A stretch of DNA of 64,000 bases, from positions 864,001-928,000 of the forward strand of contig CAVZZO010000001.1 in NCBI GenBank assembly GCA_963779755.1, in the 5' to 3' direction. A program made the position numbers and the translations under genes. Of this stretch, positions 13,570 through 21,667 are shown piece by piece. Source of the DNA: an uncultured Gemmatimonadales bacterium (lineage in GTDB: Bacteria > Gemmatimonadota > Gemmatimonadetes > Gemmatimonadales > GWC2-71-9). The stretch's first letter is position 1; each line of letters opens with the position of its first letter. Below the pieces are notes generated by a model. It did no database searches. It saw only the letters and a list, made by a program, of their open reading frames with translations, and was not told the origin of the DNA.

Positions 13570-14187
13570 TCAGACAGGTTGGCCGGGTCCGGATGGGCGA
13601 AATCCCAGTACCTGGACCACCGCCGACTTCCCCCGGTGGTACGTCCCTTCGGCCACCTCGCGCTCCACCTCGCGGGCAATGGCGAGATCCAGGCCGGCCA
13701 GCTCTTCCCGCAGGGCCGGGAGAGTCATCAGCAGTTCAGCAACCGGCGGGCCACCGGTCCCGAACGTCAGCTGGCGCGGCGTATAGGCTTCCAGGACGAA
13801 GGCTCCGCCGGGGCGAAGCCCTTCCACCGCATGGCGATGTACCTGCCGCCGGAGGTCCGGCGGCAGGTGGGCGAAGATGGCCACGATACCCGCCCAGTGG
13901 TTCCGCTCGATGGCGAAATGCTCGAGATCGGCGACCTCTGTGTGAAGTCTGACTCCCCGGGCAGCCCCCAGTTCCCTGGCCCGGGCCATACCAACCGGTG
14001 ACTGATCGACCGCCGTCACTTCATGCCCCAACCGCGCCAGGAACACTGCATTGCGGCCCTGGCCCTCCGCCAGGCAGAGGACCGGACCGGCGGGAATCCG
14101 GTCCGCAACCGATGCGAGAAAGGCGTTCGGCTCGGTGCCGTAGGCATACTCCGGCGCCGCGTAGCGTTCGTCCCAGTGAGTAGGCAT
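13570..14187 (-). CDS. Class I SAM-dependent methyltransferase (TehB-like)
   Basis: WDERY...YGTEPN, LCLAEGQGRNAVFLA, LRPGG; start set at MPTHW. Confidence 0.85.
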   Translation of the reverse strand: MPTHWDERYAAPEYAYGTEPNAFLASVADRIPAGPVLCLAEGQGRNAVFLARLGHEVTAVDQSPVGMARARELGAARGVRLHTEVADLEHFAIERNHWAGIVAIFAHLPPDLRRQVHRHAVEGLRPGGAFVLEAYTPRQLTFGTGGPPVAELLMTLPALREELAGLDLAIAREVEREVAEGTYHRGKSAVVQVLGFRPSGPGQPV

Positions 14188-14286
14188 GTCCGAAATTGGT
14201 GAGTTCTCGATTCCCTCGACGCTATCGATCAACCCGTGCCTCCTTTCCGGTGAATATGGCGCCGCAACGGGGTTGCGCCAGACAGT

Positions 14287-14590
14287 CCCCCACCGCTCTC
14301 CCCACCACCCGTCGAGCCGCTCCGCCCTTCCTCTCCCCCGGTCGAGCCCCCCACACCCCTCCCCGCCCGGTCGAACCCTTCACCGCCGCCGCTCCCCGCG
14401 GTTGAAGGTCGAGCGGGCATTGCTCGAGCCGCTTGACCCGCGATGCGAGGTGGAGGCGGGGGCGCGGTTTGACCGGGGGATGGGCGGTGCGGGGCGGTTC
14501 GACCGGTGAGGTGCGGTTGGGAGGAGGGGCTCGACTGGTGGGGGGGAGGGAGTGAGGGGAGGGCTCCACCGGCGGCGGGGCGGAAGGGAA
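14287..14590. repeat. Long imperfect palindrome made of ~30-bp periodic units
   Basis: GTCGA/GTTGA cores at 14311, 14341, 14370 and 14401 with C-rich spacers; mirrored TTGAC/TCGAC/TCCAC cores at 14433, 14469, 14499, 14531 and 14565 with G-rich spacers. Confidence 0.7.
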
Positions 14591-14600
14591 GGGCCAACCG

Positions 14601-14629
14601 CAAAACCGCCCGGCAGCGGCCGGGCGGTT
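14601..14629 (-). terminator. Rho-independent terminator of the kamA operon
   Basis: Hairpin AACCGCCCGGC/GCCGGGCGGTT ending in a TTTT run on the minus strand, ~25 nt after the stop. Confidence 0.7.
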
Positions 14630-14653
14630 GTCCTGCACACCTTCGCAGCTCGA

Positions 14654-15820
14654 TCAGGCGGACTTCCGCTTCGCTGACTTCGATCGCTTCGACCGCTTCT
14701 TGAGCTCGAAGGTCGGCTGGAAGAGGTACTCGGGGTCGAGCCGCTCGGCGGCCACCCCCACCTCTTCCCGCGGCTGCCGGTAGGTATAGCGCTCGCCGCG
14801 GAAGTTCCGGAGTACCACCTCGTCCTCGTTATAGCTCTCCACGTATTCCGGCAACAGCGGGATCTTGCCGCCGCCGCCCGGGGCGTCGATGACGAAATAG
14901 GGGATGGCCAGCCCGCTGGTCCAGCCCCGCAGCGCTTTCATGATCTTGAGGCCTGTTTCCACCGAGGTGCGGAAGTGCTCCGCCCCGGCCACCTGGTCGG
15001 CCATATAGATGTAGTAGGGCCGGACCCGGGCCAGCAGCAGGCGGTGCATCAGCTCCATCATCACCTTGGGCGTGTCGTTGACGCCCTTGAGCAGCACCGT
15101 CTGGCAGCCCAGCGGGATGCCGGCATCGGCCAGCATGCCCAGGGCCTTCATCGCCGCCGGCGTCAGCTCGTCGGGGTGATTGAAATGGGTGTTGATGAAG
15201 AGCGGGTGGAACTCATGCAGCATGGCCGTGAGCTCCGGCGTCACCCGCTCCGGCAGATGGCAGGGCACCCGGCTTCCGATCCGCAGGATCTGGAGGTGCT
15301 TGATGCCCCGCAGCCGGGTGAGGATTTCCTTCAGCCGGCGGTCGGACAGCAGGAGCGGATCGCCGCCCGACATGATGACGTCGCGGATCTCGGTATGCGA
15401 TTCGAGATACTTGAAGGCCGACTCGAACTGCGACATCGGGATCTTTTCGGGGTCGCCCACTTTGCGCCGCCGGGTGCAGAAGCGGCAGTAGCTGGCGCAG
15501 ACCGGGGAGACCAGGAACAGCGCCCGGTCGGGATAGCGGTGGGTGATGTTGGGCACCGGGCTGTCGGCGTCTTCGCCCAGCGAGTCCACAATGCCGTCGA
15601 CCACCTCCAGCTCCTGTAACGTGGGGACGTACTGGCGCCAGATCGGGTCGCCCGGCTCCTTGATCAGATCCACCATCGCGGGCGAGATGCGGAACTCGAA
15701 GTTCTCGGCAGCCTGCCGCAGCTGGTCGATATGCTCGACATGCTCCGGCCCGAAGCGCTGTGCCAGCGCCTCCAGGCTGCGGATGGAGTTCTGCTTGAGC
15801 AGTTCTTGCCACGTCGCCAT
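14654..15820 (-). CDS. kamA: KamA-family radical SAM/PLP lysine 2,3-aminomutase
   Basis: THRYPDR, CASYCRFCTRRR, SGGDPL, THFNHP, QTVLLKGVND, PYYIYMAD, DAPGGGGK. Confidence 0.92.
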   Translation of the reverse strand: MATWQELLKQNSIRSLEALAQRFGPEHVEHIDQLRQAAENFEFRISPAMVDLIKEPGDPIWRQYVPTLQELEVVDGIVDSLGEDADSPVPNITHRYPDRALFLVSPVCASYCRFCTRRRKVGDPEKIPMSQFESAFKYLESHTEIRDVIMSGGDPLLLSDRRLKEILTRLRGIKHLQILRIGSRVPCHLPERVTPELTAMLHEFHPLFINTHFNHPDELTPAAMKALGMLADAGIPLGCQTVLLKGVNDTPKVMMELMHRLLLARVRPYYIYMADQVAGAEHFRTSVETGLKIMKALRGWTSGLAIPYFVIDAPGGGGKIPLLPEYVESYNEDEVVLRNFRGERYTYRQPREEVGVAAERLDPEYLFQPTFELKKRSKRSKSAKRKSA

Positions 15821-15823
15821 GAG

Positions 15824-16342
15824 CTACCTGCCTTGTGGACCGGCGGAAGAGGGACCGAGCGGCTTCGTATAGACGATCTGGTGATCGCCCGGGGCGTAGA
15901 AATCCGGAATCCGGGCCACGGCGGTGTAGCCGCAGGACCGGTAGAACGCCTGGGTGGGCGCGTAGAGGTCGCGTCCGCCCGTTTCCACCACGAGCATCCG
16001 CGCCCGGCCTGCCAGGCGGCGTTCCATCTGGGCGATGAGGGCGCGGCCCACCCCGGCACGCTGCGCGGCGGGATCCACCACGATCCAGTAGAGATCGTAG
16101 GTGCCCTCGGTGCAGGGCGTCGGCCCCCAGCAGATCCAGCCCGCCAGCGCGCCGTCGACCACGGCGCCCAGCGTCTCGTAATCCCGCTGCCCCGCCACCA
16201 GCGAGGCATCGAATACCTCCAGCGCCACCAGGACTTCCTCCTCGCGGAAGAAGCTGGTCGCCCGGACCATCCGTTCCACTGCGGGGCGATCGGCCGCGGT
16301 GAGCGGCCGCAACCCGGGCTTCAGTTCGGCGCGTGCGGTCAT
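15824..16342 (-). CDS. GNAT N-acetyltransferase
   Basis: YDLYWIVVDPAAQRAGVGRAL, FYRSCGY, DFYAPGD; ATGA overlap. Confidence 0.88.
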   Translation of the reverse strand: MTARAELKPGLRPLTAADRPAVERMVRATSFFREEEVLVALEVFDASLVAGQRDYETLGAVVDGALAGWICWGPTPCTEGTYDLYWIVVDPAAQRAGVGRALIAQMERRLAGRARMLVVETGGRDLYAPTQAFYRSCGYTAVARIPDFYAPGDHQIVYTKPLGPSSAGPQGR

Positions 16343-17343
16343 GCGCGGGGCTCCGTCAGGGTGGTGGCGGCCTGGCGCGAGGCGGCGCGGTCGAGCGTCT
16401 CCCGGATCACCTGCGCCAGCAGCTCCTCGTAATCCCAGCTCTCGGCCTGGGCCATTCGGGCCAGGCCGGCATCGACTGAAAGATCCGCGTTGGGATTTAC
16501 CTCGAGCACGAACGGCCGCCCCGCCTCGTCCACCCGCAGATCCACCCGGCCGTAACCCTCGCAATTCGTCAGCAATTCCCAGGCCCGCCGGGCCGCATCC
16601 GCAAGCCGGGCTTGGAGATCGGGGTCGATCCGCGCGGGGCAGATGGGAATGGTGCCGCGGTCTTCTTCGCTGCCCTCTTCCCACTTGGCGGAGTAGGTGA
16701 CGATGGGCCATCGGCTCGCCGGCATGGCGGCGAAATCGATTTCCGAGATGGGAAGCATCTTCCGGCCGACGAAGCCCACGTTGAATTCCCGCCCCGCCAC
16801 ATACTCCTGCACCAGCACGTCCTCCCACTGCTCGGCCATCCGGGCCACCCGGTCACGCAGCCCTTCGGCGGTGGTGCAGACCGCCCCCACGTCCACGCCC
16901 AGGCTGGCGTCTTCCGCCGCCGGCTTGACGATTGCCGGCAGGCCGACCCCGTCGGGAATGGTGTTGCCTCTCGCCAGTCCGAAGGGCGGGACCGGGATGT
17001 TTTCCGACTGAAGCAGGGCGTTCGCCACGTGTTTCCGGTGGCAGATCGCGGTGGCCCAGGCGCGGCAGCCGGTGAAGGGCACGCCGCACAGCTCCAGGGT
17101 GCCGACCACCCAGTCCTCGAACCGCGAATGGCCGTCCAGCCCCTCACAGAGGTTGAAGATCACGTCGGCCCTCCGGACGGCGGTGAGCCAGCGCCAGTCG
17201 CCCGGACGGATCGGCACCAGGGTGCAGGCGTGGCCCCGCCGGCGGAGGCAGGTCTGCACGATGCGGACGCTTTCCACCGCCGCGGCGATGTCGCGCTGAT
17301 CCCAGTGCACGCCGCCCGGATCGAACAGAATGGCGACCTTCAC
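16339..17343 (-). CDS. Ddl-like ATP-grasp ligase (second copy)
   Basis: FNLCEG, IVKPAAEDASLG, QEYVAGREFNV, TYSAKW, YGRVDLR, LEVNPN; GTGA overlap. Confidence 0.87.
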   Translation of the reverse strand: MKVAILFDPGGVHWDQRDIAAAVESVRIVQTCLRRRGHACTLVPIRPGDWRWLTAVRRADVIFNLCEGLDGHSRFEDWVVGTLELCGVPFTGCRAWATAICHRKHVANALLQSENIPVPPFGLARGNTIPDGVGLPAIVKPAAEDASLGVDVGAVCTTAEGLRDRVARMAEQWEDVLVQEYVAGREFNVGFVGRKMLPISEIDFAAMPASRWPIVTYSAKWEEGSEEDRGTIPICPARIDPDLQARLADAARRAWELLTNCEGYGRVDLRVDEAGRPFVLEVNPNADLSVDAGLARMAQAESWDYEELLAQVIRETLDRAASRQAATTLTEPRA

Positions 17344-18449
17344 GGCGCCACTCCGGCCCCGAGCGGCCGGCCGCTGATCCGCCGCCAGGCGATATCGGCG
17401 ACGGCCTGAATCAGTTCCTCGTAGCTCATCCCCGCCGCGCGCGCGGCCTTGGGGAAGCAGGAATTGTCCCTGGGGTCTGGCAGAATGCCCGGAAGCGGAT
17501 TGAGCTCCACCACCATCGGGTGCCCCGTGCCGTCGCAGCGGATGTCCACCCGGCACCAGTCGCGGCAGCCCAGGGTGCGGTAGCCGGCCAGCGCGGCGGA
17601 GCGGATCTCCGCTGCCAGCGGCTCGGGAATCCGCGCCGGGCACTCGAAGATCTCCAGCGGATTGTCCAGCGTGTCCCAGAGCCACTTCGCCTCGTAGCCG
17701 TAGACCGGAGGCGCGCCGGGCGGCAGGCAGTCGAAATTGAATCCCACCAGGGGGAGACAGCGGGCCTCGTCGCCATTGCCGATGATCGCCACGGTGAACT
17801 CGGGGCCGGGCAGCCAGGCCTCGATCAGCACCGGCTGGCTGTAAGTGGCGAGCAGATACTCCACCCGGGCCACCAGCTCGGCTCGGTTCGCGCACAGGTT
17901 GCTGATGGCGATCCCCTTGCCCGAGCCCTCCGCCACCGGCTTTACGAACAGCGGGAACGGCAGGGAGACGTTGCGGGCGTCGGCCACCGAGCGCGCCACC
18001 AGGAAGGGAGCGGTGGGCACGCCGTGGAAGCTCAGGATCTCCTTGGTCCGCCCCTTGTCCAGGGTCAGCGCCAGGGCCAGCGGGTCGGAGGCGGAGTAGG
18101 GGATGCCGAAGAACTCGCAGATGGCGGGGACGTGGCCCTCGCGGTTGGGCCCGTAGAGGCCCTCGGCGATGTTGAAGACGAAATCGGGCCGCGCCTGTGC
18201 CAGCCGGGCGGGAAACTCCCTGGTGGCTTCCAGGCGGATCACCTCGCCCACACCCAGCAGCGCCTGCTCGACCGCGGCAATGGTGGCGGGTTCGTCCCAC
18301 TCGGCGTAGAGATCGGGTTGCTCGAGATCGGTGCGGAGCGCGCGTTGCGGCGAGAGGCCGGCGGATAGAGGAGAGGACAAGTCCGCCCCGGTCGGAGTGA
18401 CCGGCGCCTCTGGCTTCTGGTTGTAGGCGAGACCTATTCGGACGCCCAA
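17340..18449 (-). CDS. Ddl-like ATP-grasp ligase (first copy)
   Basis: FNIAEG, LDKGRTK, FVKPVAEGSGKGI, GYEAKW, RVDIR, ELNPLPG; TTG start with AAGGGG SD. Confidence 0.88.
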   Translation of the reverse strand: MGVRIGLAYNQKPEAPVTPTGADLSSPLSAGLSPQRALRTDLEQPDLYAEWDEPATIAAVEQALLGVGEVIRLEATREFPARLAQARPDFVFNIAEGLYGPNREGHVPAICEFFGIPYSASDPLALALTLDKGRTKEILSFHGVPTAPFLVARSVADARNVSLPFPLFVKPVAEGSGKGIAISNLCANRAELVARVEYLLATYSQPVLIEAWLPGPEFTVAIIGNGDEARCLPLVGFNFDCLPPGAPPVYGYEAKWLWDTLDNPLEIFECPARIPEPLAAEIRSAALAGYRTLGCRDWCRVDIRCDGTGHPMVVELNPLPGILPDPRDNSCFPKAARAAGMSYEELIQAVADIAWRRISGRPLGAGVAP

Positions 18450-18541
18450 ACGGTCCCCTTTAAAAAAAGGTCGCCTCCTGCAGTGAGGCGCGGATCGTTG
18501 TTTGGCGCCAACAAATTAAGAAAAAGCCGACGCGGACACAA
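18450..18541 (-). promoter_or_regulatory. Candidate sigma70 promoter and structured leader (attenuator-like)
   Basis: TTGTGT-17 nt-TAATTT (18541-18513), then hairpin CGCCTC/GAGGCG and a T7 run directly before the SD. Confidence 0.5.
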
Positions 18542-18595
18542 TAGATTTTTCGAAAGAGTTTTCCGGATCGGGCCGGAGAGCGATCCTCAGTCCTC

Positions 18596-19102
18596 TCAGC
18601 TTTCTCTGCCTCGTCGGATGCGCTCGTAGGTGCGGAACGAAAGGTCCCATGCATTCTGCGCGTCCGCCGGATGCCGCTCTTCCGCCACCAGCCGCCAGTG
18701 ATCGGGGTTCCACTGGGGGAAATAGACCGTCCCGGGGATTTCCGCCTCGACGATGGTCAGCACCATCCGGTCGGCGCGGGGCAGGGCCAGGCGGAAGATC
18801 TCCGCCCCGCCCAGCACGAAGACCTCCGGCGCGCCCTGGACGCGCGCCAGCGCCTCCTCCAGCGAACCCGCCGTTTCGGCGCCGGGAGCGGAGAAGACCG
18901 CATCCCGGGATATGACGATGTTCTGACGCCGGGGCAGCGGCTTCCGCTCGATCGAGTCGAAGGTCCTCCGGCCCATGATGACGGGATGGCCGGTGGTGAG
19001 CTGCTTGAAATGCCGGAGATCGGCGGGGAGGTGCCAGGGGAGCTGATTGTCCCGGCCGATCACCCGGTTCCGGGCCATGGCGGCCACCAGAGTGACCGTC
19101 AT
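18596..19102 (-). CDS. folA: Dihydrofolate reductase
   Basis: [47 protein letters not shown]. Confidence 0.96.
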
Positions 19103-19893
19103 ACCGCGATGGGCGCGCGGATGCCGGGGTGCGGGTCGTACTGCTCCAGCAGGAAATCCTGATACTGGAAATCAAAGAGCGAGCGGACCTCGGGATTGAG
19201 CCGCATCCGGGGCAGCGCCCGGGGCTCGCGGGTGAGCTGGAGCCGGACCGCGTCCAGGTGGTTCAGGTAGAGATGCGCATCGCCCAGCGCCAGGATGAAC
19301 TCCCCCGCTTCCAGCCCGCTGACCTGGGCGACCATCATCGTGAGCAGGGCGTAGGAGGCGATGTTGAACGGCACCCCCAGGAAGACATCGGCGCTGCGCT
19401 GGTAGAGCTGGCAGGAGAGCCGGCCCTCGCTTACGTAGAACTGGAAGAGGGCGTGGCAGGGGGCCAGCGCCATCCGGGGGATGTCGGCCACATTCCAGGC
19501 GCTCACCACCAGGCGGCGCGAGTCGGGCCGCTCGCGGATTTCCGCCAGTACCTGGCTGATCTGGTCGATGTGCCGGCCATCCGGCGCCGGCCAGGACCGC
19601 CACTGATATCCGTAGACCGGACCCAGCTCGCCTTCGGCGTCCGCCCACTCGTTCCAGATGCTCACCCCCTGCTCGGTGAGATAGCGGATGTTGGTCTCTC
19701 CCCGCAGGAACCAGAGCAGCTCGTAGATGACCGACTTGAGGTGGACCTTCTTGGTGGTGAGGAGCGGAAACCCCGCCTGCAGGTCGAACCGCATCTGATG
19801 GCCGAAGATGCTCAGCGTGCCCGTGCCGGTGCGGTCGCTCTTCTCCCGGCCGTCCTCGAGGATGTGGCGGAGAAGAGAGAGGTAGGTCTGCAT
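19099..19893 (-). CDS. thyA: Thymidylate synthase
   Basis: [54 protein letters not shown]; 264 aa. Confidence 0.97.
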
Positions 19894-19966
19894 GGTTGCT
19901 ACTCTAAGGGGAAAGGCAACGGGGGAAAAGGGGACAGGGAAGGGACCAGGAACCAGGATTCGGGAT

Positions 19967-21667
19967 TCAGGGCCTCTCGTCGCTTCCCCCGCTTCCCTGG
20001 CTTCCACCGTTTCCCGGTTCCCTGTTCCCGTTTCCCGCTGGTGTCGCCGCCAGCTCCATCCTCCACCGCGCGTATCCCCCCGTTTTCTCGATCTCCCGCA
20101 GTGCTGCCGCGATATCCTCCGGTAGCGGCGTAGCCCCCCTGCCTACCTTCAGCCGCTCGAACGGCCCCTCGGCACCCGGCAGCTTCACCCCGGGGTTCAT
20201 GATTCCCGCCGGATCGAAGGCCTGTTTGACGCGGCGGAACAGGTCCACGACCTCCCCGCCGTAGAATTTCTCCAGCAGGCCGGGCCGGAGCCGCCCGTCT
20301 CCGTGTTCCCCCGATGCACTGCCGCCGAGTGCCCGGAGCCCCTGGCTCACGGAATGGTAAAGCCCGGCCACCTGCTGTTCCCAGCCTTCCTGCTCCACCG
20401 GCGCCAGCAGGTTGACGTGCAGATTACCGTCGCCCGCGTGACCGAAGATCACCACCGGCAGCCCTCGCTCCCCGGCCGCTTCCCGTACCAGGCGGATGTA
20501 ATCGCCCATGCGCTCCACCGGGACGGTACCGTCCTCGATCACCTGGAGGGAGCGCCGGCCGCGCGGCAGCCCGGCGATGATCGGGCTGGCCGCATGGCGC
20601 AGCGCCCAGAGCCGGCGCTCCTCTTCGGGGGTAACCGCGGTCGCCGTCTCCGCCGCCCAGGGGGCGGTGCGCCGGACCGCGTCGCCCACGGTACCCCGCA
20701 CCGTCTGCTCCGAGGCTCCCTCGAATTCCACCAGCAGCACGGCCTGGGTGTCCGGCGGCAGCCCCTGGAGCGCCGGATGCCCCGCCGGCCGGAGCAGGTC
20801 GAGGAAGGTGCGGTCCAGCAGTTCCAGGGCGCTCGGGTTCAATGGAAGCAAGGCCTCGACGGCGGCGGTCAGGTCGTCCAGCCCGCGGAGCGAGATGCGC
20901 AGTCCGGCGCGCGCGGCGGGGAGGGGGTCGAGCCGCCACTCCGTCCCGGTGATGAAACCCAGGGTGCCCTCCGCGCCGATCACCAGGTCGAGCAGGTCGC
21001 CGCTCTGGAGCCAGGCGTCGAGCGCATAGCCCGAGGAGTTCTTCCGGGTAGCGGGGAAGGCCCGGGCGACCGCCGAGGCACGTTCCCGGATGACGGGCGC
21101 CGCCTCGGATTCGAACCGCTGGACCGCCAGCACGGCCGGGTCCGGAGCGGCGCCGCGGCGCAGCCAGGTGGCCTGACCCTCGGCGGTGAGCAGCGCGCAC
21201 CCGGCCGCCCACGGGCGCACGCTCCCGTAGCGGACCGATCGCGCGCCCGATGCATTGGTAGAGAGTATCCCGCCCAACGTGGCCCAGCCGCCGCTCGAGG
21301 GATCGGGCGGCAGCCGCAACCCATGGCGCGCCGCCTCGGTATCGAGCTCCGCGAGAGTCACCGAAGGTGAGGCGCTGGCGCGCCGCCCCTCCCGGTCGAT
21401 CTCCAGCACGCGGGGCTCCAGCTGGGTCAGGTCCACGACCACGCCAGGCCCGACGCTGCTGCCGGTGACCGCGCTGCCCGCCCCGCGCGGCGTCAGTCCC
21501 GCTCCCGCTTTCGCGGCCCAGCGGACCAGCTCCGCCAGCTGCCCGGTCGTGCGCGGGACGGCCACGGCTTCGGGAATAATCCGGTAGATCCCCGCGCCCT
21601 CCGCATAGGCGGCACGGACGCGCGGGGCGTCATCAAGGAACGAGGCGAGGCTGGCGGGCGGCTTCAT
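19967..21667 (-). CDS. FAD-binding oxidoreductase (GlcD/D-lactate dehydrogenase family)
   Basis: [56 protein letters not shown]. Confidence 0.9.

What the first reader, a model, noticed from the sequence alone, without database searches (positions are those of the whole stretch)
14654..18449. Compact beta-lysine peptide biosynthesis operon: two ATP-grasp ligases, a GNAT and lysine 2,3-aminomutase
Seen: four coupled genes with their own candidate promoter and terminator. The aminomutase keeps HRYPDR, the PLP lysine (GGGGK) and both aspartates (YMAD, IDAP). Established: in Clostridium LAM these aspartates bind the lysine side-chain amine and are replaced in glutamate 2,3-aminomutase; KamA plus GNAT alone (AblAB) makes the osmolyte N-epsilon-acetyl-beta-lysine. 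Both ligases lack the N-terminal GG.S.E D-Ala site of true Ddl and differ from each other (ELNPLPG versus EVNPNAD). No lysine-fermentation or efp/epmA genes are adjacent. Inference: the product is an acetylated beta-lysine (or beta-Arg) di/tripeptide or conjugate (osmolyte, cell-wall or protein modifier), possibly made by a ligase heterodimer. I know of no characterised product for this arrangement, but cannot check the literature here.
Basis: partly seen in the sequence, partly recalled or inferred. Interest (0 to 1): 0.75.

Follow-up and report, generated by a model that had tools for sequence, protein, structure and literature searches.

The report
Conserved beta-lysine twin-ligase acetyltransferase operon
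Four tightly packed genes (a lysine-to-beta-lysine enzyme, two different amide-bond ligases derived from the cell-wall D-Ala-D-Ala ligase, and a small acetyltransferase) form a unit found in thousands of bacteria that probably builds a still unidentified acetylated beta-lysine compound, and the same unit sits in a genetically tractable laboratory bacterium where it can now be tested.

Summary
On the minus strand lie Lig1 (17340-18449), Lig2 (16339-17343), a GNAT (15824-16342) and a KamA-family aminomutase (14654-15820), joined by GTGA and ATGA overlaps and a 3-nt gap. The host is a Gemmatimonadales MAG.

Neither ligase reaches any D-Ala-D-Ala ligase cut-off, and a true Ddl lies elsewhere in the genome. 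The aminomutase keeps the radical-SAM cysteines, the PLP lysine and both lysine-binding aspartates.

The set recurs at 28-57% identity in metagenome contigs, mostly as KamA-Lig1-Lig2-GNAT, with no other conserved neighbour. KamA-Lig1 and Lig2-GNAT fusions exist. A model supports a Lig1-Lig2 dimer.

New here: the GNAT is an orthologue of PDB 2R7H (Dde_3044) of Desulfovibrio alaskensis G20. There Dde_3041-3044 carry the matching annotations in the same order. In published fitness tables, KamA and ligase mutants are neutral, also at 800 mM NaCl. GNAT mutants are mildly sick in salt, low pH and H2O2.

Best reading (0.55): a small N-acetylated beta-lysine amide or peptide whose unacetylated precursor may be harmful. 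The product is unknown, and my literature searches found nothing on it. This scan has already flagged the cassette on other DNA (142 notes hold the search words).

The parts
17340..18449 (-). Lig1: Ddl-like ATP-grasp ligase, 369 aa, TTG start. It keeps the Ddl-type Ser150, Lys215, Arg255, Asp257, Glu270, Asn272, Gly276 and Ser281 equivalents. The N-terminal GG.S.E motif is replaced by a conserved AE(W/F)D..T motif.
   Evidence: Pfam Dala_Dala_lig_C 110.6 bits. Best NCBIfam hit PRK01372 at 173.8 bits against a cut-off of 243. Aligned to Pseudomonas aeruginosa DdlB 8EVY and to the genome's own Ddl. Family invariants from 48 sequences. Forms a supported clade of 48 rows in a quick tree.
16339..17343 (-). 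Lig2: second, different Ddl-like ATP-grasp ligase, 334 aa, GTG start overlapping the Lig1 stop (GTGA). The acceptor-site residues differ from Ddl: Ser150 to Ala, Gly276 to Asp, Ser281 to Ala, Leu282 to Gly, Tyr216 to Trp.
   Evidence: Pfam 81.5 bits. Best NCBIfam hit 132 bits against a cut-off of 243. Aligned to E. coli DdlB 1IOV/2DLN. AlphaFold model pLDDT 93.2; nearest folds are Ddl at 19-26% identity. Start fixed by alignment with 10 orthologues and by sequence.
15824..16342 (-). Small GNAT acetyltransferase, 172 aa, ATG overlapping the Lig2 stop (ATGA). Orthologue of PDB 2R7H (Dde_3044).
   Evidence: Pfam Acetyltransf_1 and Acetyltransf_7. No AblB match at E<=0.01. phmmer against 2R7H E 1.1e-33. 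Foldseek 41% identity, TM 0.85-0.92, rmsd 1.5 A. Model pLDDT 91.7. Family invariants from 53 sequences.
14654..15820 (-). KamA-family PLP/radical-SAM 2,3-aminomutase, 388 aa. It has C108/C112/C115, PLP Lys319 and the substrate aspartates D275 and D312.
   Evidence: TIGR00238 270 bits (cut-off 199). AblA 426 bits (cut-off 525). 2A5H E 3e-109 with D293, D330 and K337 aligned. These residues are invariant in 40 cassette aminomutases. It is the only KamA-family gene in the genome.
14604..14629 (-). Candidate intrinsic terminator after KamA: 11-bp perfect stem, 4-nt loop, then TTTTG.
   Evidence: pair I12. Not flagged by the consensus scan because the T-run is short.
18450..18595 (-). 146-nt folA-Lig1 spacer. 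It holds a terminator-like hairpin (18490-18472) 22 nt before the Lig1 start and a purine-rich AAAGGGGA just upstream of the TTG. No consensus promoter was found.
   Evidence: No Rfam family in 14000-19200.

Best explanation
The four genes encode a self-contained cytoplasmic pathway to a small N-acetylated amide or peptide that contains beta-lysine.

Step 1. The KamA-family enzyme converts L-lysine to beta-lysine (3,6-diaminohexanoate). This is inferred from conserved residues.

Step 2. Lig1 takes the beta-lysine directly and makes a first amide bond through an acyl-phosphate. Lig1 is fused to the aminomutase in other lineages, and it keeps the Ddl residues that hold an amino-acid carboxylate.

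Step 3. Lig2 probably sits with Lig1 in a Ddl-like heterodimer, and its acceptor pocket is rebuilt with acidic residues. It makes a second amide bond.

Step 4. The GNAT is fused to Lig2 in about a third of family representatives. It acetylates a remaining free amine.

The unacetylated intermediate would be a polycation. Published G20 mutant data suggest that it is harmful under stress, so acetylation both finishes and detoxifies the product.

What is shown: gene structure, family membership, conservation, fusions, and the published mutant phenotypes. What is inferred: the substrates other than lysine, the order of steps 2-4, and the physiological role (a stress-related solute is my first guess).
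For: Gene structure
- The genes are translationally coupled.

Aminomutase
- It keeps the CxxxCxxC cysteines, the PLP lysine and both lysine-binding aspartates. These are invariant in 40 of 40 cassette aminomutases aligned.

Conservation in Gemmatimonadales
- 11 of 11 same-family loci keep Lig1-Lig2-GNAT, and 8 of 11 are followed by KamA.
- Of 80 loci, 53 have the KamA orthologue after the GNAT, 7 have a divergent KamA paralogue there, 14 have none within at least 1.9 kb, and 6 end too early to tell.
- 5 of 5 genomes tested from those 14 carry the divergent paralogue elsewhere. In 3 of them it lies 14-19 kb away, apparently on the same contig.

Conservation outside the phylum
- In 80 metagenome loci the set recurs at 28-57% identity. 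26 loci read KamA-Lig1-Lig2-GNAT; most of the rest read as cut-off parts of that order or as variants: 10 KamA-Lig1-Lig2 without a GNAT hit, 3 in the window's order, a few irregular.
- No other gene family is shared by more than 5 of the 40 loci of at least 6 kb.

Fusions
- 16 of the 120 listed long Lig1 relatives are KamA-Lig1 fusions by Pfam content.
- 46 of the 150 best GNAT-family representatives carry Dala_Dala_lig_C in front of the GNAT.
- 13 of 57 adjacent Lig2-GNAT pairs in the loci share one ORF.
- One true Lig1-Lig2 fusion was seen.

Ligase pair
- Complex model: median score 0.63, best of 3 controls 0.00. The runs agree in at least 89% of contacts and the partner's pLDDT is at least 83. 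The tool's mark was reached by 116 of 157 solved complexes and by 2 of 215 mismatched pairs.

Not Ddl
- Both ligases fall below all NCBIfam cut-offs.
- The genome has its own Ddl with the GG.S.E motif.

D. alaskensis G20
- Dde_3041 (KamA family), Dde_3042 and Dde_3043 (Ddl-like) and Dde_3044 (GNAT, PDB 2R7H) lie in that order on one strand. All four are classed 'Dispensable'.
- Gene-level fitness at 800 mM NaCl (chip 440) is -0.15, -0.08 and -0.06 for the first three and -0.77 for the GNAT.
- Two GNAT mutant strains score -1.63 and -1.00 in the second NaCl experiment, -1.02 and -0.86 on the 'pH' chip, -1.01 and -0.77 at pH 6.0, and -1.09 and -0.37 in 200 uM H2O2.
Against: - No product, substrate or activity has been measured anywhere that I could find.
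- The G20 phenotypes are mild. I did not assess their significance.
- My mapping of the last 32 strain-level columns assumes that they follow the order of the gene-level header. This holds for the columns that could be checked.
- A GNAT-only phenotype could also mean that the GNAT has a second, unrelated substrate.
- Only the sequence of Dde_3044 was compared. Dde_3041-3043 are matched by annotation and gene order alone.
- Neutral KamA and ligase mutants at 800 mM NaCl do not support an important osmolyte role in G20, which also has an annotated ablA, Dde_0189.
- 14 of 74 informative Gemmatimonadales loci lack an adjacent aminomutase.
- About 10 metagenome loci replace the GNAT by a Cys-rich DUF3109-like protein. 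The acetylation step is therefore not universal.
- In the quick tree the window's Lig2 does not fall inside the large metagenome Lig2 clade. Strict orthology of Lig2 across phyla is not shown.
- The heterodimer model may reflect memory of solved Ddl homodimers. No homodimer comparison was run.
Confidence: 0.55

Rival explanations
1. The product is a secreted or bioactive beta-lysine compound (antibiotic-like polycation, chelator or signal). The GNAT is a self-protection or pro-form step, and deacetylation activates the compound.
For: - In G20 only the GNAT mutants are sick, while the upstream mutants are neutral. This is the pattern expected of a self-protection gene.
- 5 loci (a sixth is cut off) insert a histone-deacetylase-family enzyme, with a weak GNAT-like N terminus, between Lig2 and the GNAT.
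- 2 of the 150 best GNAT representatives are HDAC-GNAT fusions.
- Recalled, not tested: streptothricin resistance GNATs acetylate the beta-amino group of a beta-lysine moiety.
Against: - No transporter, regulator or resistance gene is conserved beside the cassette.
- The cassette is very widespread (903 50%-identity representatives of the GNAT family at E<=1e-30) and, within Gemmatimonadales, mostly sits at the same locus. This is more typical of physiology than of a specialised antibiotic.
- The GNAT is fused to a biosynthetic ligase in about a third of representatives.
Confidence: 0.15
2. The ligases attach beta-lysine, or a beta-lysyl peptide, to a protein. This would be an ATP-grasp analogue of EF-P beta-lysylation or of RimK-type tailing, with the GNAT capping the added amine.
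For: - The only KamA-family gene of the genome is in this operon.
- No EpmA is found over the cut-off.
- Some Lig2-like Atlas clusters carry weak TTL-family Pfam hits (27-74% of members).
- The GNAT's nearest characterised structural neighbours are RimI protein acetyltransferases at 23-24% identity.
Against: - EF-P of this genome has no lysine at the loop tip; it reads HRTPGNLRAF. The position of the modified lysine in E. coli is recalled.
- No candidate target gene is conserved beside the cassette.
- Both ligases have the Ddl fold, whose known members join small molecules.
- Lig1 keeps the residues that hold a free amino-acid carboxylate.
Confidence: 0.12
3. The pair makes an alternative dipeptide for peptidoglycan or another envelope polymer, as the Van ligases do. 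Beta-lysine would be one building block.
For: - Nearest family and fold are Ddl and Van ligases.
- Lig1 keeps the Ddl acceptor-site Ser and Gly.
- The depositors named 2R7H a 'putative D-alanine N-acetyltransferase'.
Against: - No Mur-ligase, racemase or carboxypeptidase gene travels with the cassette.
- All four G20 genes are dispensable. The three biosynthetic ones are neutral in every one of the 74-82 conditions I could read.
- The N-terminal D-Ala1 motif is absent from both ligases.
Confidence: 0.05
4. The aminomutase acts on a basic amino acid other than lysine (arginine or ornithine), so the product is built on beta-arginine or beta-ornithine. This rival concerns step 1 only and is compatible with any of the roles above.
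For: - The protein misses the AblA equivalog cut-off (426 bits against 525).
- It lacks the zinc-site Cys268 (Thr in the alignment) and has no Cys in its C-terminal tail. The identity of the zinc ligands is recalled.
- Part of the Gemmatimonadales use a 27-30% identical paralogue instead.
Against: - AblA is the best-scoring family. Arginine 2,3-aminomutase scores 308 bits against a cut-off of 600.
- Both aspartates that bind the lysine side-chain amine are invariant.
Confidence: 0.1

Closest known systems
AblA/AblB pathway to N-epsilon-acetyl-beta-lysine (methanogens and some bacteria; seen cited in passages of PMC3543383)
   Same: A KamA-family lysine 2,3-aminomutase is encoded next to a GNAT. 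Beta-lysine is made and an amine is acetylated.
   Different: - Two ATP-grasp ligases stand between the two enzymes.
- The GNAT gives no AblB (TIGR03827) match at E<=0.01, and the aminomutase is under the AblA cut-off.
- D. alaskensis G20 has a separately annotated ablA (Dde_0189) besides the cassette aminomutase Dde_3041.
D-alanine--D-alanine ligase (Ddl) and the Van ligases
   Same: Same fold, and same ATP-grasp catalytic Lys, Arg, Asp, Glu and Asn. The predicted dimer uses the Ddl-type interface region.
   Different: - Both ligases score under every NCBIfam cut-off.
- The N-terminal GG.S.E site is absent, and the omega-loop Tyr is Trp.
- The Lig2 acceptor site is rebuilt.
- A true Ddl is elsewhere in the genome.
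- The G20 genes annotated as Ddl-like, in the same order, are dispensable.
PDB 2R7H, Dde_3044 of Desulfovibrio alaskensis (desulfuricans) G20, a structural-genomics GNAT of unknown function
   Same: Orthologue of the window's GNAT: E 1.1e-33, 41% identity, TM 0.85-0.92. It sits behind genes annotated as a KamA-family enzyme and two Ddl-like ligases.
   Different: The gene order there is KamA-Lig1-Lig2-GNAT, with a sigma-54 regulator gene upstream. Its deposited name, 'putative D-alanine N-acetyltransferase', is a guess from context.
Ngg/AsnO pathway to N-acetylglutaminylglutamine amide, and mammalian NAT8L plus RIMKLA/B making N-acetyl-aspartyl-glutamate (both recalled, not tested here)
   Same: The logic is the same: a GNAT and an ATP-grasp ligase, fused in Ngg, together make a small N-acetylated peptide.
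   Different: As I recall, those ligases are RimK-like, not Ddl-like. There is no aminomutase and no beta-amino acid.
EpmB/EpmA beta-lysylation of EF-P
   Same: A KamA-family enzyme supplies beta-lysine to a ligase.
   Different: - The ligase there is a LysRS paralogue, and none is found here over the cut-off.
- EF-P here has no lysine at the loop tip.
- EpmB is the lowest-scoring KamA subfamily for this protein (227 bits against a cut-off of 369).

Membership tests
KamA family / lysine 2,3-aminomutase | Score over the family cut-off (TIGR00238) | tested here: met
   270.3 bits against a cut-off of 199.2.
KamA family / lysine 2,3-aminomutase | CxxxCxxC radical-SAM cluster and PLP-binding lysine | tested here: met
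   C108, C112, C115 and K319 align with the 2A5H motif and K337. The three Cys are invariant and K319 is nearly invariant in 40 sequences.
KamA family / lysine 2,3-aminomutase | Two aspartates that bind the lysine epsilon-amine (D293 and D330 of 2A5H) | tested here: met
   D275 and D312 align with them and are invariant in 40 of 40 sequences.
KamA family / lysine 2,3-aminomutase | AblA/KamA equivalog score (TIGR03820) | tested here: not met
   426.4 bits against a cut-off of 525.4.
KamA family / lysine 2,3-aminomutase | Conversion of L-lysine to beta-lysine | not testable with these tools
   Needs an enzyme assay.
D-alanine--D-alanine ligase (Ddl) | Score over any NCBIfam Ddl or Van cut-off | tested here: not met
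   Lig1 best 173.8 bits against 243. Lig2 best 132.1 bits against 243.
D-alanine--D-alanine ligase (Ddl) | N-terminal GG.S.E motif of the first D-Ala site | tested here: not met
   The genome's own Ddl has GGTSSERDVS. Lig1 has AEWDEPATI there, and Lig2 has no equivalent.
D-alanine--D-alanine ligase (Ddl) | ATP-grasp catalytic residues (K144, K215, R255, D257, E270 and N272 of E. coli DdlB) | tested here: met
   All align in Lig1 and in Lig2.
D-alanine--D-alanine ligase (Ddl) | Second D-Ala site (S150, Y216, G276, S281, L282) | tested here: inconclusive
   Lig1 keeps the S150, G276 and S281 equivalents, with Y216 to W and L282 to C. Lig2 has A, W, D, A and G at these positions.
AblB beta-lysine acetyltransferase | Match to the AblB model (TIGR03827; accession recalled) | tested here: not met
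   The model is not among the NCBIfam hits at E<=0.01. The best hit is RimI at 40.6 bits against a cut-off of 86.4.
GNAT superfamily | Pfam GNAT domain over the cut-off, and GNAT fold | tested here: met
   Acetyltransf_1 42.4 bits against 20.7. Model pLDDT 91.7, and the top folds are all GNATs.
EpmA/EpmB EF-P beta-lysylation | EpmA ligase present, and lysine at the EF-P loop tip | tested here: not met
   The best genX hit is 246 bits against a cut-off of 286.9, in a 742-aa frame that I read as LysRS (not checked). The EF-P loop reads HRTPGNLRAF.

The most novel reading that the evidence does not exclude
The cassette makes a previously unknown class of beta-lysine-based metabolite that is common to thousands of soil, sediment and anaerobic bacteria. 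Its free-amine form is harmful to the producer, and the cell manages it by an acetylation/deacetylation switch: the GNAT is fused to the ligase, and in some lineages an HDAC-type deacetylase is fused to the GNAT. This would be a stress-triggered polycation or prodrug-like compound rather than a passive osmolyte.
Probability: 0.25. Interest if true: 0.8.

Novelty: new variant of a known kind. Interest (0 to 1): 0.62.

Why it matters
Size of the gap. The cassette-type GNAT family alone has 903 representatives at 50% identity (E<=1e-30). At least 5,967 clusters at 90% identity match its profile. A Lig1 orthologue is present in 136 of 301 Gemmatimonadota genomes sampled. Named taxa with the GNAT include Planctomycetota, Acidobacteriota and KSB1; by the Atlas, also Thermodesulfobacteriota. 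The searches I could run found no product or phenotype attached to it. A widespread four-enzyme pathway with an unknown metabolite is a real gap in bacterial metabolism.

The gap is now directly testable.
- The GNAT's orthologue has a solved structure (2R7H).
- Genes with the matching annotations, in cassette order, lie in Desulfovibrio alaskensis G20.
- Mapped transposon mutants of all four G20 genes exist.
- Published fitness tables already hint at a stress-dependent cost of losing only the acetyltransferase.

Tried and rejected
- RNA evidence: no RNA holder was listed for the stretch, so nothing was laid.
- Rfam: nothing credible in 14000-19200 (two hits, E 0.23 and 0.36, both under gathering score). 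The hairpin before Lig1 therefore matches no known leader or riboswitch.
- Promoter scan: 0 sigma-70-like sites. Gemmatimonadota promoters may differ from that consensus.
- Conserved extra genes: none shared by more than 5 of the 40 metagenome loci of at least 6 kb.
  - In Gemmatimonadales a GlcD-like FAD oxidase is usually upstream. I treat that as local synteny.
- Tree of the ligases: only the quick tree finished. It supports a Lig1 clade but leaves the window's Lig2 unresolved, so I make no claim about Lig2 orthology or about the order of duplication.
- Myxococcota and Bdellovibrionota proteins of about 700 aa, which I first took for Lig1-Lig2 fusions, are two Lig1-like halves (checked on P0071 and P0044). 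I could not see their context and do not count them.
- Other G20 data sets:
  - Phosphate limitation shows no phenotype for Dde_3041-3044.
  - The high-pressure paper's held supplements do not mention the genes.
  - The copper paper mentions only Dde_3047, a phosphatase outside the cassette.
  - The main text of the D. vulgaris fitness paper has none of my search terms.
- Iyer et al. 2009 (amidoligases, Mol Biosyst; PMC3268129) may discuss such systems. It is not held and I saw none of it.
- bioRxiv supplements were not consulted.
- Literature searches that found nothing on this arrangement. I read search listings and abstracts only, except for the passages named above.
- Not tried: complex models of Lig1-Lig1, Lig2-Lig2 or Lig2-GNAT (the cap was one job).

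Full report
WHAT IS THERE

The window is part of contig C1 of a 4.23-Mb genome that is 97% complete. The closest public loci are all Gemmatimonadales MAGs. G+C content is about 65-72% around the operon.

Four ORFs lie head to tail on the minus strand.
- Lig1: 17340-18449, 369 aa.
- Lig2: 16339-17343, 334 aa. Its GTG start was fixed by alignment with 10 orthologues.
- GNAT: 15824-16342, 172 aa.
- KamA-family aminomutase: 14654-15820, 388 aa.

The junctions are a GTGA overlap, an ATGA overlap and a 3-nt gap. This is the usual signature of translational coupling.

Upstream lie folA, thyA and a GlcD-like FAD oxidase. Downstream lie a SAM methyltransferase and a fatty-acid desaturase.

A perfect 11-bp hairpin followed by TTTTG comes after the KamA stop. 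No sigma-70-type promoter was found. The one terminator-like site flagged next to the operon lies 22 nt before the Lig1 start, behind folA; a second flagged site lies inside Lig1. The operon may therefore be read through from folA or controlled at that hairpin. Rfam knows no element there.

WHAT THE PROTEINS ARE

Ligases.
- Both ligases have the Ddl C-terminal domain, but they miss every NCBIfam Ddl or Van cut-off by a wide margin.
- The genome has a real Ddl elsewhere (172 bits to the Pfam model). It carries the GGTSSERDVS motif, which neither ligase has.
- Residue numbers below were counted on the printed alignments to P. aeruginosa DdlB and E. coli DdlB.
- Lig1 keeps the ATP-grasp catalytic residues and the Ser150, Gly276 and Ser281 equivalents that hold the second substrate.
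- Lig2 keeps the catalytic residues but has Ala, Asp and Ala at those three positions, and Gly for Leu282. In both ligases the omega-loop Tyr is Trp.
- Across 48 Lig1 and 47 Lig2 sequences from several phyla, separate sets of residues are invariant. In Lig1 these include an N-terminal Glu, Asp and Thr where Ddl has its first D-Ala site.
- The AlphaFold model of Lig2 is confident (pLDDT 93.2). Its nearest solved folds are Ddl enzymes at 19-26% identity.

Aminomutase.
- It passes the KamA family cut-off and scores best against AblA-type lysine 2,3-aminomutase, but under that equivalog's cut-off.
- It aligns to the Clostridium structure 2A5H at E 3e-109.
- These residues are invariant in 40 cassette aminomutases.
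- It is the only KamA-family gene in this genome.

GNAT.
- It is a plain small GNAT with no AblB match.

IS IT A UNIT?

Within the family of the host genome:
- 11 of 11 loci keep Lig1-Lig2-GNAT.
- 8 of 11 continue with the aminomutase at 82-85% identity.
- The other 3 have about 1 kb after the GNAT without it.

Among 80 public Gemmatimonadales loci:
- 53 have the orthologous aminomutase after the GNAT.
- 7 have instead a full-length KamA-family paralogue that is only 27-30% identical.
- 14 have none within at least 1.9 kb.
- 6 end too early to tell.

In 5 of 5 genomes tested from the 14, the divergent paralogue is present. In 3 of them it lies 14-19 kb away, apparently on the same contig. So every genome examined that has the ligase pair also has a KamA-family gene, but linkage is not absolute.

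In the phylum, a Lig1 orthologue (E<=1e-50) was found in 136 of 301 genomes sampled. It is concentrated in two families (102 of 124 and 30 of 70). It was found in 3 of the remaining 106. That tally includes the unpublished genomes G086, G178 and G203. The tally includes the unpublished G014.

Outside the phylum, I scanned metagenome contigs with an alignment of fused Lig2-GNAT proteins. This query biases the sample towards such forms. It returned 80 loci in which the four families recur at 43-57% (KamA), 36-47% (Lig1; one partial hit at 61%), 27-41% (Lig2) and 32-48% (GNAT) identity.
- The commonest full arrangement is KamA-Lig1-Lig2-GNAT (26 loci).
- Most of the rest read as cut-off parts of that order or as variants: 10 are KamA-Lig1-Lig2 without a GNAT hit, and a few are irregular.
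- 3 have the window's order.
- Among the 40 loci of at least 6 kb, no other gene family is shared by more than 5.

The set therefore moves as a self-contained module, and its internal order can be permuted.

FUSIONS AND CONTACTS

- 16 of the 120 best long relatives of Lig1 combine LAM_C, Radical_SAM and Dala_Dala_lig_C. These are KamA-Lig1 fusions, and one is labelled archaeal by its source.
- Of the 150 best representatives of the GNAT family, 49 are at least 430 aa long. Of those, 46 carry Dala_Dala_lig_C in front of the GNAT, 2 carry a histone-deacetylase domain, and 1 carries MazG.
- One protein is a true Lig1-Lig2 fusion.
- The fusion pattern matches the usual gene order. It suggests the sequence aminomutase, then Lig1, then Lig2, then or together with the GNAT.
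- A complex model of Lig1 with Lig2 scored 0.63 (median of three runs) against a best control of 0.00. The runs agree in at least 89% of contacts, and the partner's pLDDT is at least 83. The tool's mark was reached by 116 of 157 solved complexes and by 2 of 215 mismatched pairs.
- Because Ddl homodimers are solved, this pass shows that the pair can be modelled as a Ddl-like dimer. It does not show that they bind in the cell.

THE LINK TO A MODEL ORGANISM

The GNAT's nearest solved structure is 2R7H. This is Dde_3044 of Desulfovibrio alaskensis (desulfuricans) G20, a structural-genomics entry without a function. The match is 41% identity, TM 0.85-0.92, rmsd 1.5 A, and phmmer E 1.1e-33. It shares the motifs that are invariant in the family.

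I searched the supplementary gene tables of Kuehl et al. 2014 (PMC4045070), not the whole paper. They list the following genes consecutively on the plus strand:
- Dde_3040, a sigma-54-specific regulator, just upstream
- Dde_3042, D-alanine--D-alanine ligase
- Dde_3043, Ddl domain protein
- Dde_3044, GNAT

Dde_3041-3044 all have mapped transposon insertions and are classed 'Dispensable'. G20 also has two further KamA-family genes, one of them annotated ablA. The cassette enzyme is therefore not that organism's AblA.

I read single rows and the header of the fitness tables of Price et al. 2014 (PMC4215793).
- The three upstream genes are neutral in every one of the 74-82 conditions visible in each row (the largest gene-level values I could read are about 0.5).
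- At 800 mM NaCl (chip 440) the gene-level values are -0.15 (KamA), -0.08 (Lig1), -0.06 (Lig2) and -0.77 (GNAT).
- Two independent GNAT strains have their lowest values in the second NaCl experiment (-1.63 and -1.00), on the 'pH' chip (-1.02 and -0.86), at pH 6.0 (-1.01 and -0.77) and in 200 uM H2O2 (-1.09 and -0.37).

Caveats:
- The effects are mild, and I did not assess their significance.
- The header of the last 32 strain-level columns was taken from the gene-level file.
- Only the sequence of Dde_3044 was compared with the window.

Phosphate limitation gave no phenotype.

HOW IT MOST LIKELY WORKS

Shown: a coupled operon of a lysine-type aminomutase, two different Ddl-derived ligases and a GNAT. 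The set is conserved as a module, with KamA-Lig1 and Lig2-GNAT fusions.

Inferred:
- Lysine is turned into beta-lysine.
- Lig1 activates a carboxylate as an acyl-phosphate and joins beta-lysine to a partner that bears a free carboxylate. Its Ddl-type Arg, Ser and Gly are kept. The two invariant N-terminal acidic residues could hold the two ammonium groups of beta-lysine.
- Lig2 has a pocket that is more acidic and lacks the carboxylate-binding Ser. It adds a second amide bond to a cationic acceptor.
- The GNAT acetylates a remaining amine.

The G20 pattern (upstream mutants neutral, GNAT mutants sick under stress) is what one expects if the pathway runs under those stresses and the unacetylated intermediate is harmful. 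It also fits a GNAT with a second job.

I put 0.55 on 'small N-acetylated beta-lysine amide or peptide'. I put much less on any particular role. The neutral salt phenotype of the biosynthetic mutants does not support an important osmolyte in G20, although redundancy with AblA-type solutes could hide it.

RIVALS

- A secreted or bioactive compound with acetylation as self-protection (0.15). This is helped by the GNAT-only phenotype and by the deacetylase variants. It is hurt by the absence of any transporter and by the cassette's breadth.
- Protein modification (0.12). This is hurt by the lysine-less EF-P loop, the absence of a target gene, and the small-molecule pedigree of the fold.
- Envelope dipeptide (0.05).
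- Another basic amino acid as substrate (0.10, concerning step 1 only).

VARIANTS WORTH KNOWING

- In 5 metagenome loci (a sixth, L147, is cut off after 81 residues) a protein of about 600 aa lies between Lig2 and the GNAT. It has a weak GNAT-like N terminus and a histone-deacetylase-family domain.
- In about 10 loci the GNAT is replaced by a 200-aa Cys-rich protein with a weak DUF3109 match. In 5 of them a threonine-dehydratase-like PLP enzyme lies downstream (directly adjacent in 3).

COMPARISON AND NOVELTY

The pathway works like a cross between two known routes. One is AblAB: beta-lysine supply plus acetylation. The other is the GNAT plus ATP-grasp route to N-acetylated dipeptides (NAGGN and NAAG, recalled). 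It is a member of neither. The ligases are Ddl-derived, the GNAT is not AblB, and the aminomutase misses the AblA cut-off.

My searches of the held literature found no paper on this arrangement. The one review likely to bear on it (Iyer et al. 2009) is not held.

This scan has flagged the same cassette on other DNA many times. 142 earlier notes hold the search words, and the eight I read have the same reading. None mentions 2R7H or D. alaskensis. I class the finding as a new variant of a known kind.

Noticed in passing
window 14284-14560: The 420-nt spacer between KamA and the downstream methyltransferase is a long imperfect inverted repeat. A C-rich arm and a G-rich arm give pairs of 51-57 nt at 74-75% complementarity, with recurring GGTCGA(A/G)CC-like words. 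One 23-nt word from it occurs only once in the window.
   Followed up: partly
window 18472-18490: A terminator-like hairpin with a 7-T run lies only 22 nt before the Lig1 start codon, behind folA. It may end the thyA-folA transcript or act as a leader or attenuator for the operon. No Rfam family matches.
   Followed up: partly
G000 contig C1 near 265 kb, 1227 kb and 1611 kb (loci L004, L005, L006): The genome has three further Ddl-like ATP-grasp paralogues. Each lies directly beside a gene with a Peptidase_Mx (putative zinc metallopeptidase) domain, and one of those also has zinc ribbons. This recurring ligase-peptidase pair looks like a separate uncharacterised module.
   Followed up: partly
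L040:7480-8988, L088:7600-8900 and loci L182-L186: Part of the Gemmatimonadales carry a divergent KamA-family paralogue (27-30% identical, 154-180 bits to TIGR00238, under the cut-off). It keeps the cluster cysteines and both aspartates. It lies either right after the GNAT or 14-19 kb away, in place of the window-type aminomutase.
   Followed up: partly
L175:6886-8730 and L159, L160, L168, L178; proteins P0283, P0346: Some cassettes hold a histone-deacetylase-family enzyme with a weak GNAT-like N terminus between Lig2 and the GNAT. In two representatives it is fused to the cassette GNAT, so an acetyltransferase and a deacetylase share one chain.
   Followed up: partly
L177:6163-6777 and eight aligned relatives in L155, L158, L162, L167, L169, L171, L176, L179 (a further match in L166): In one group of cassettes the GNAT is replaced by a 200-aa protein with nine invariant cysteines (pattern CxxCxxCxxxCC near the N terminus) and a weak DUF3109 match. 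In 5 of them a threonine-dehydratase-like PLP enzyme lies downstream (directly adjacent in 3).
   Followed up: partly
proteins P0071 and P0044, and many others: Myxococcota (Corallococcus, Anaeromyxobacteraceae) and Bdellovibrionales encode proteins of about 700 aa. The two that I checked (P0071, P0044) are made of two Lig1-like ATP-grasp halves, and in P0071 both halves carry the AE(F/Y)D..T motif. Their genomic context was not seen.
   Followed up: partly
L191:1495-2055 (G000 contig C3, efp): EF-P of this genome reads HRTPGNLRAF at the loop that carries the modified lysine or arginine in other bacteria (position recalled). This suggests an unmodified or differently modified EF-P.
   Followed up: no
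window 18596-21667 and loci L022-L101: In most Gemmatimonadales loci the GlcD-like FAD oxidase lies directly upstream of Lig1. The thyA-folA pair stands between them only in the window and in 5 of the 80 loci (L022, L023, L024, L098, L101).
   Followed up: no
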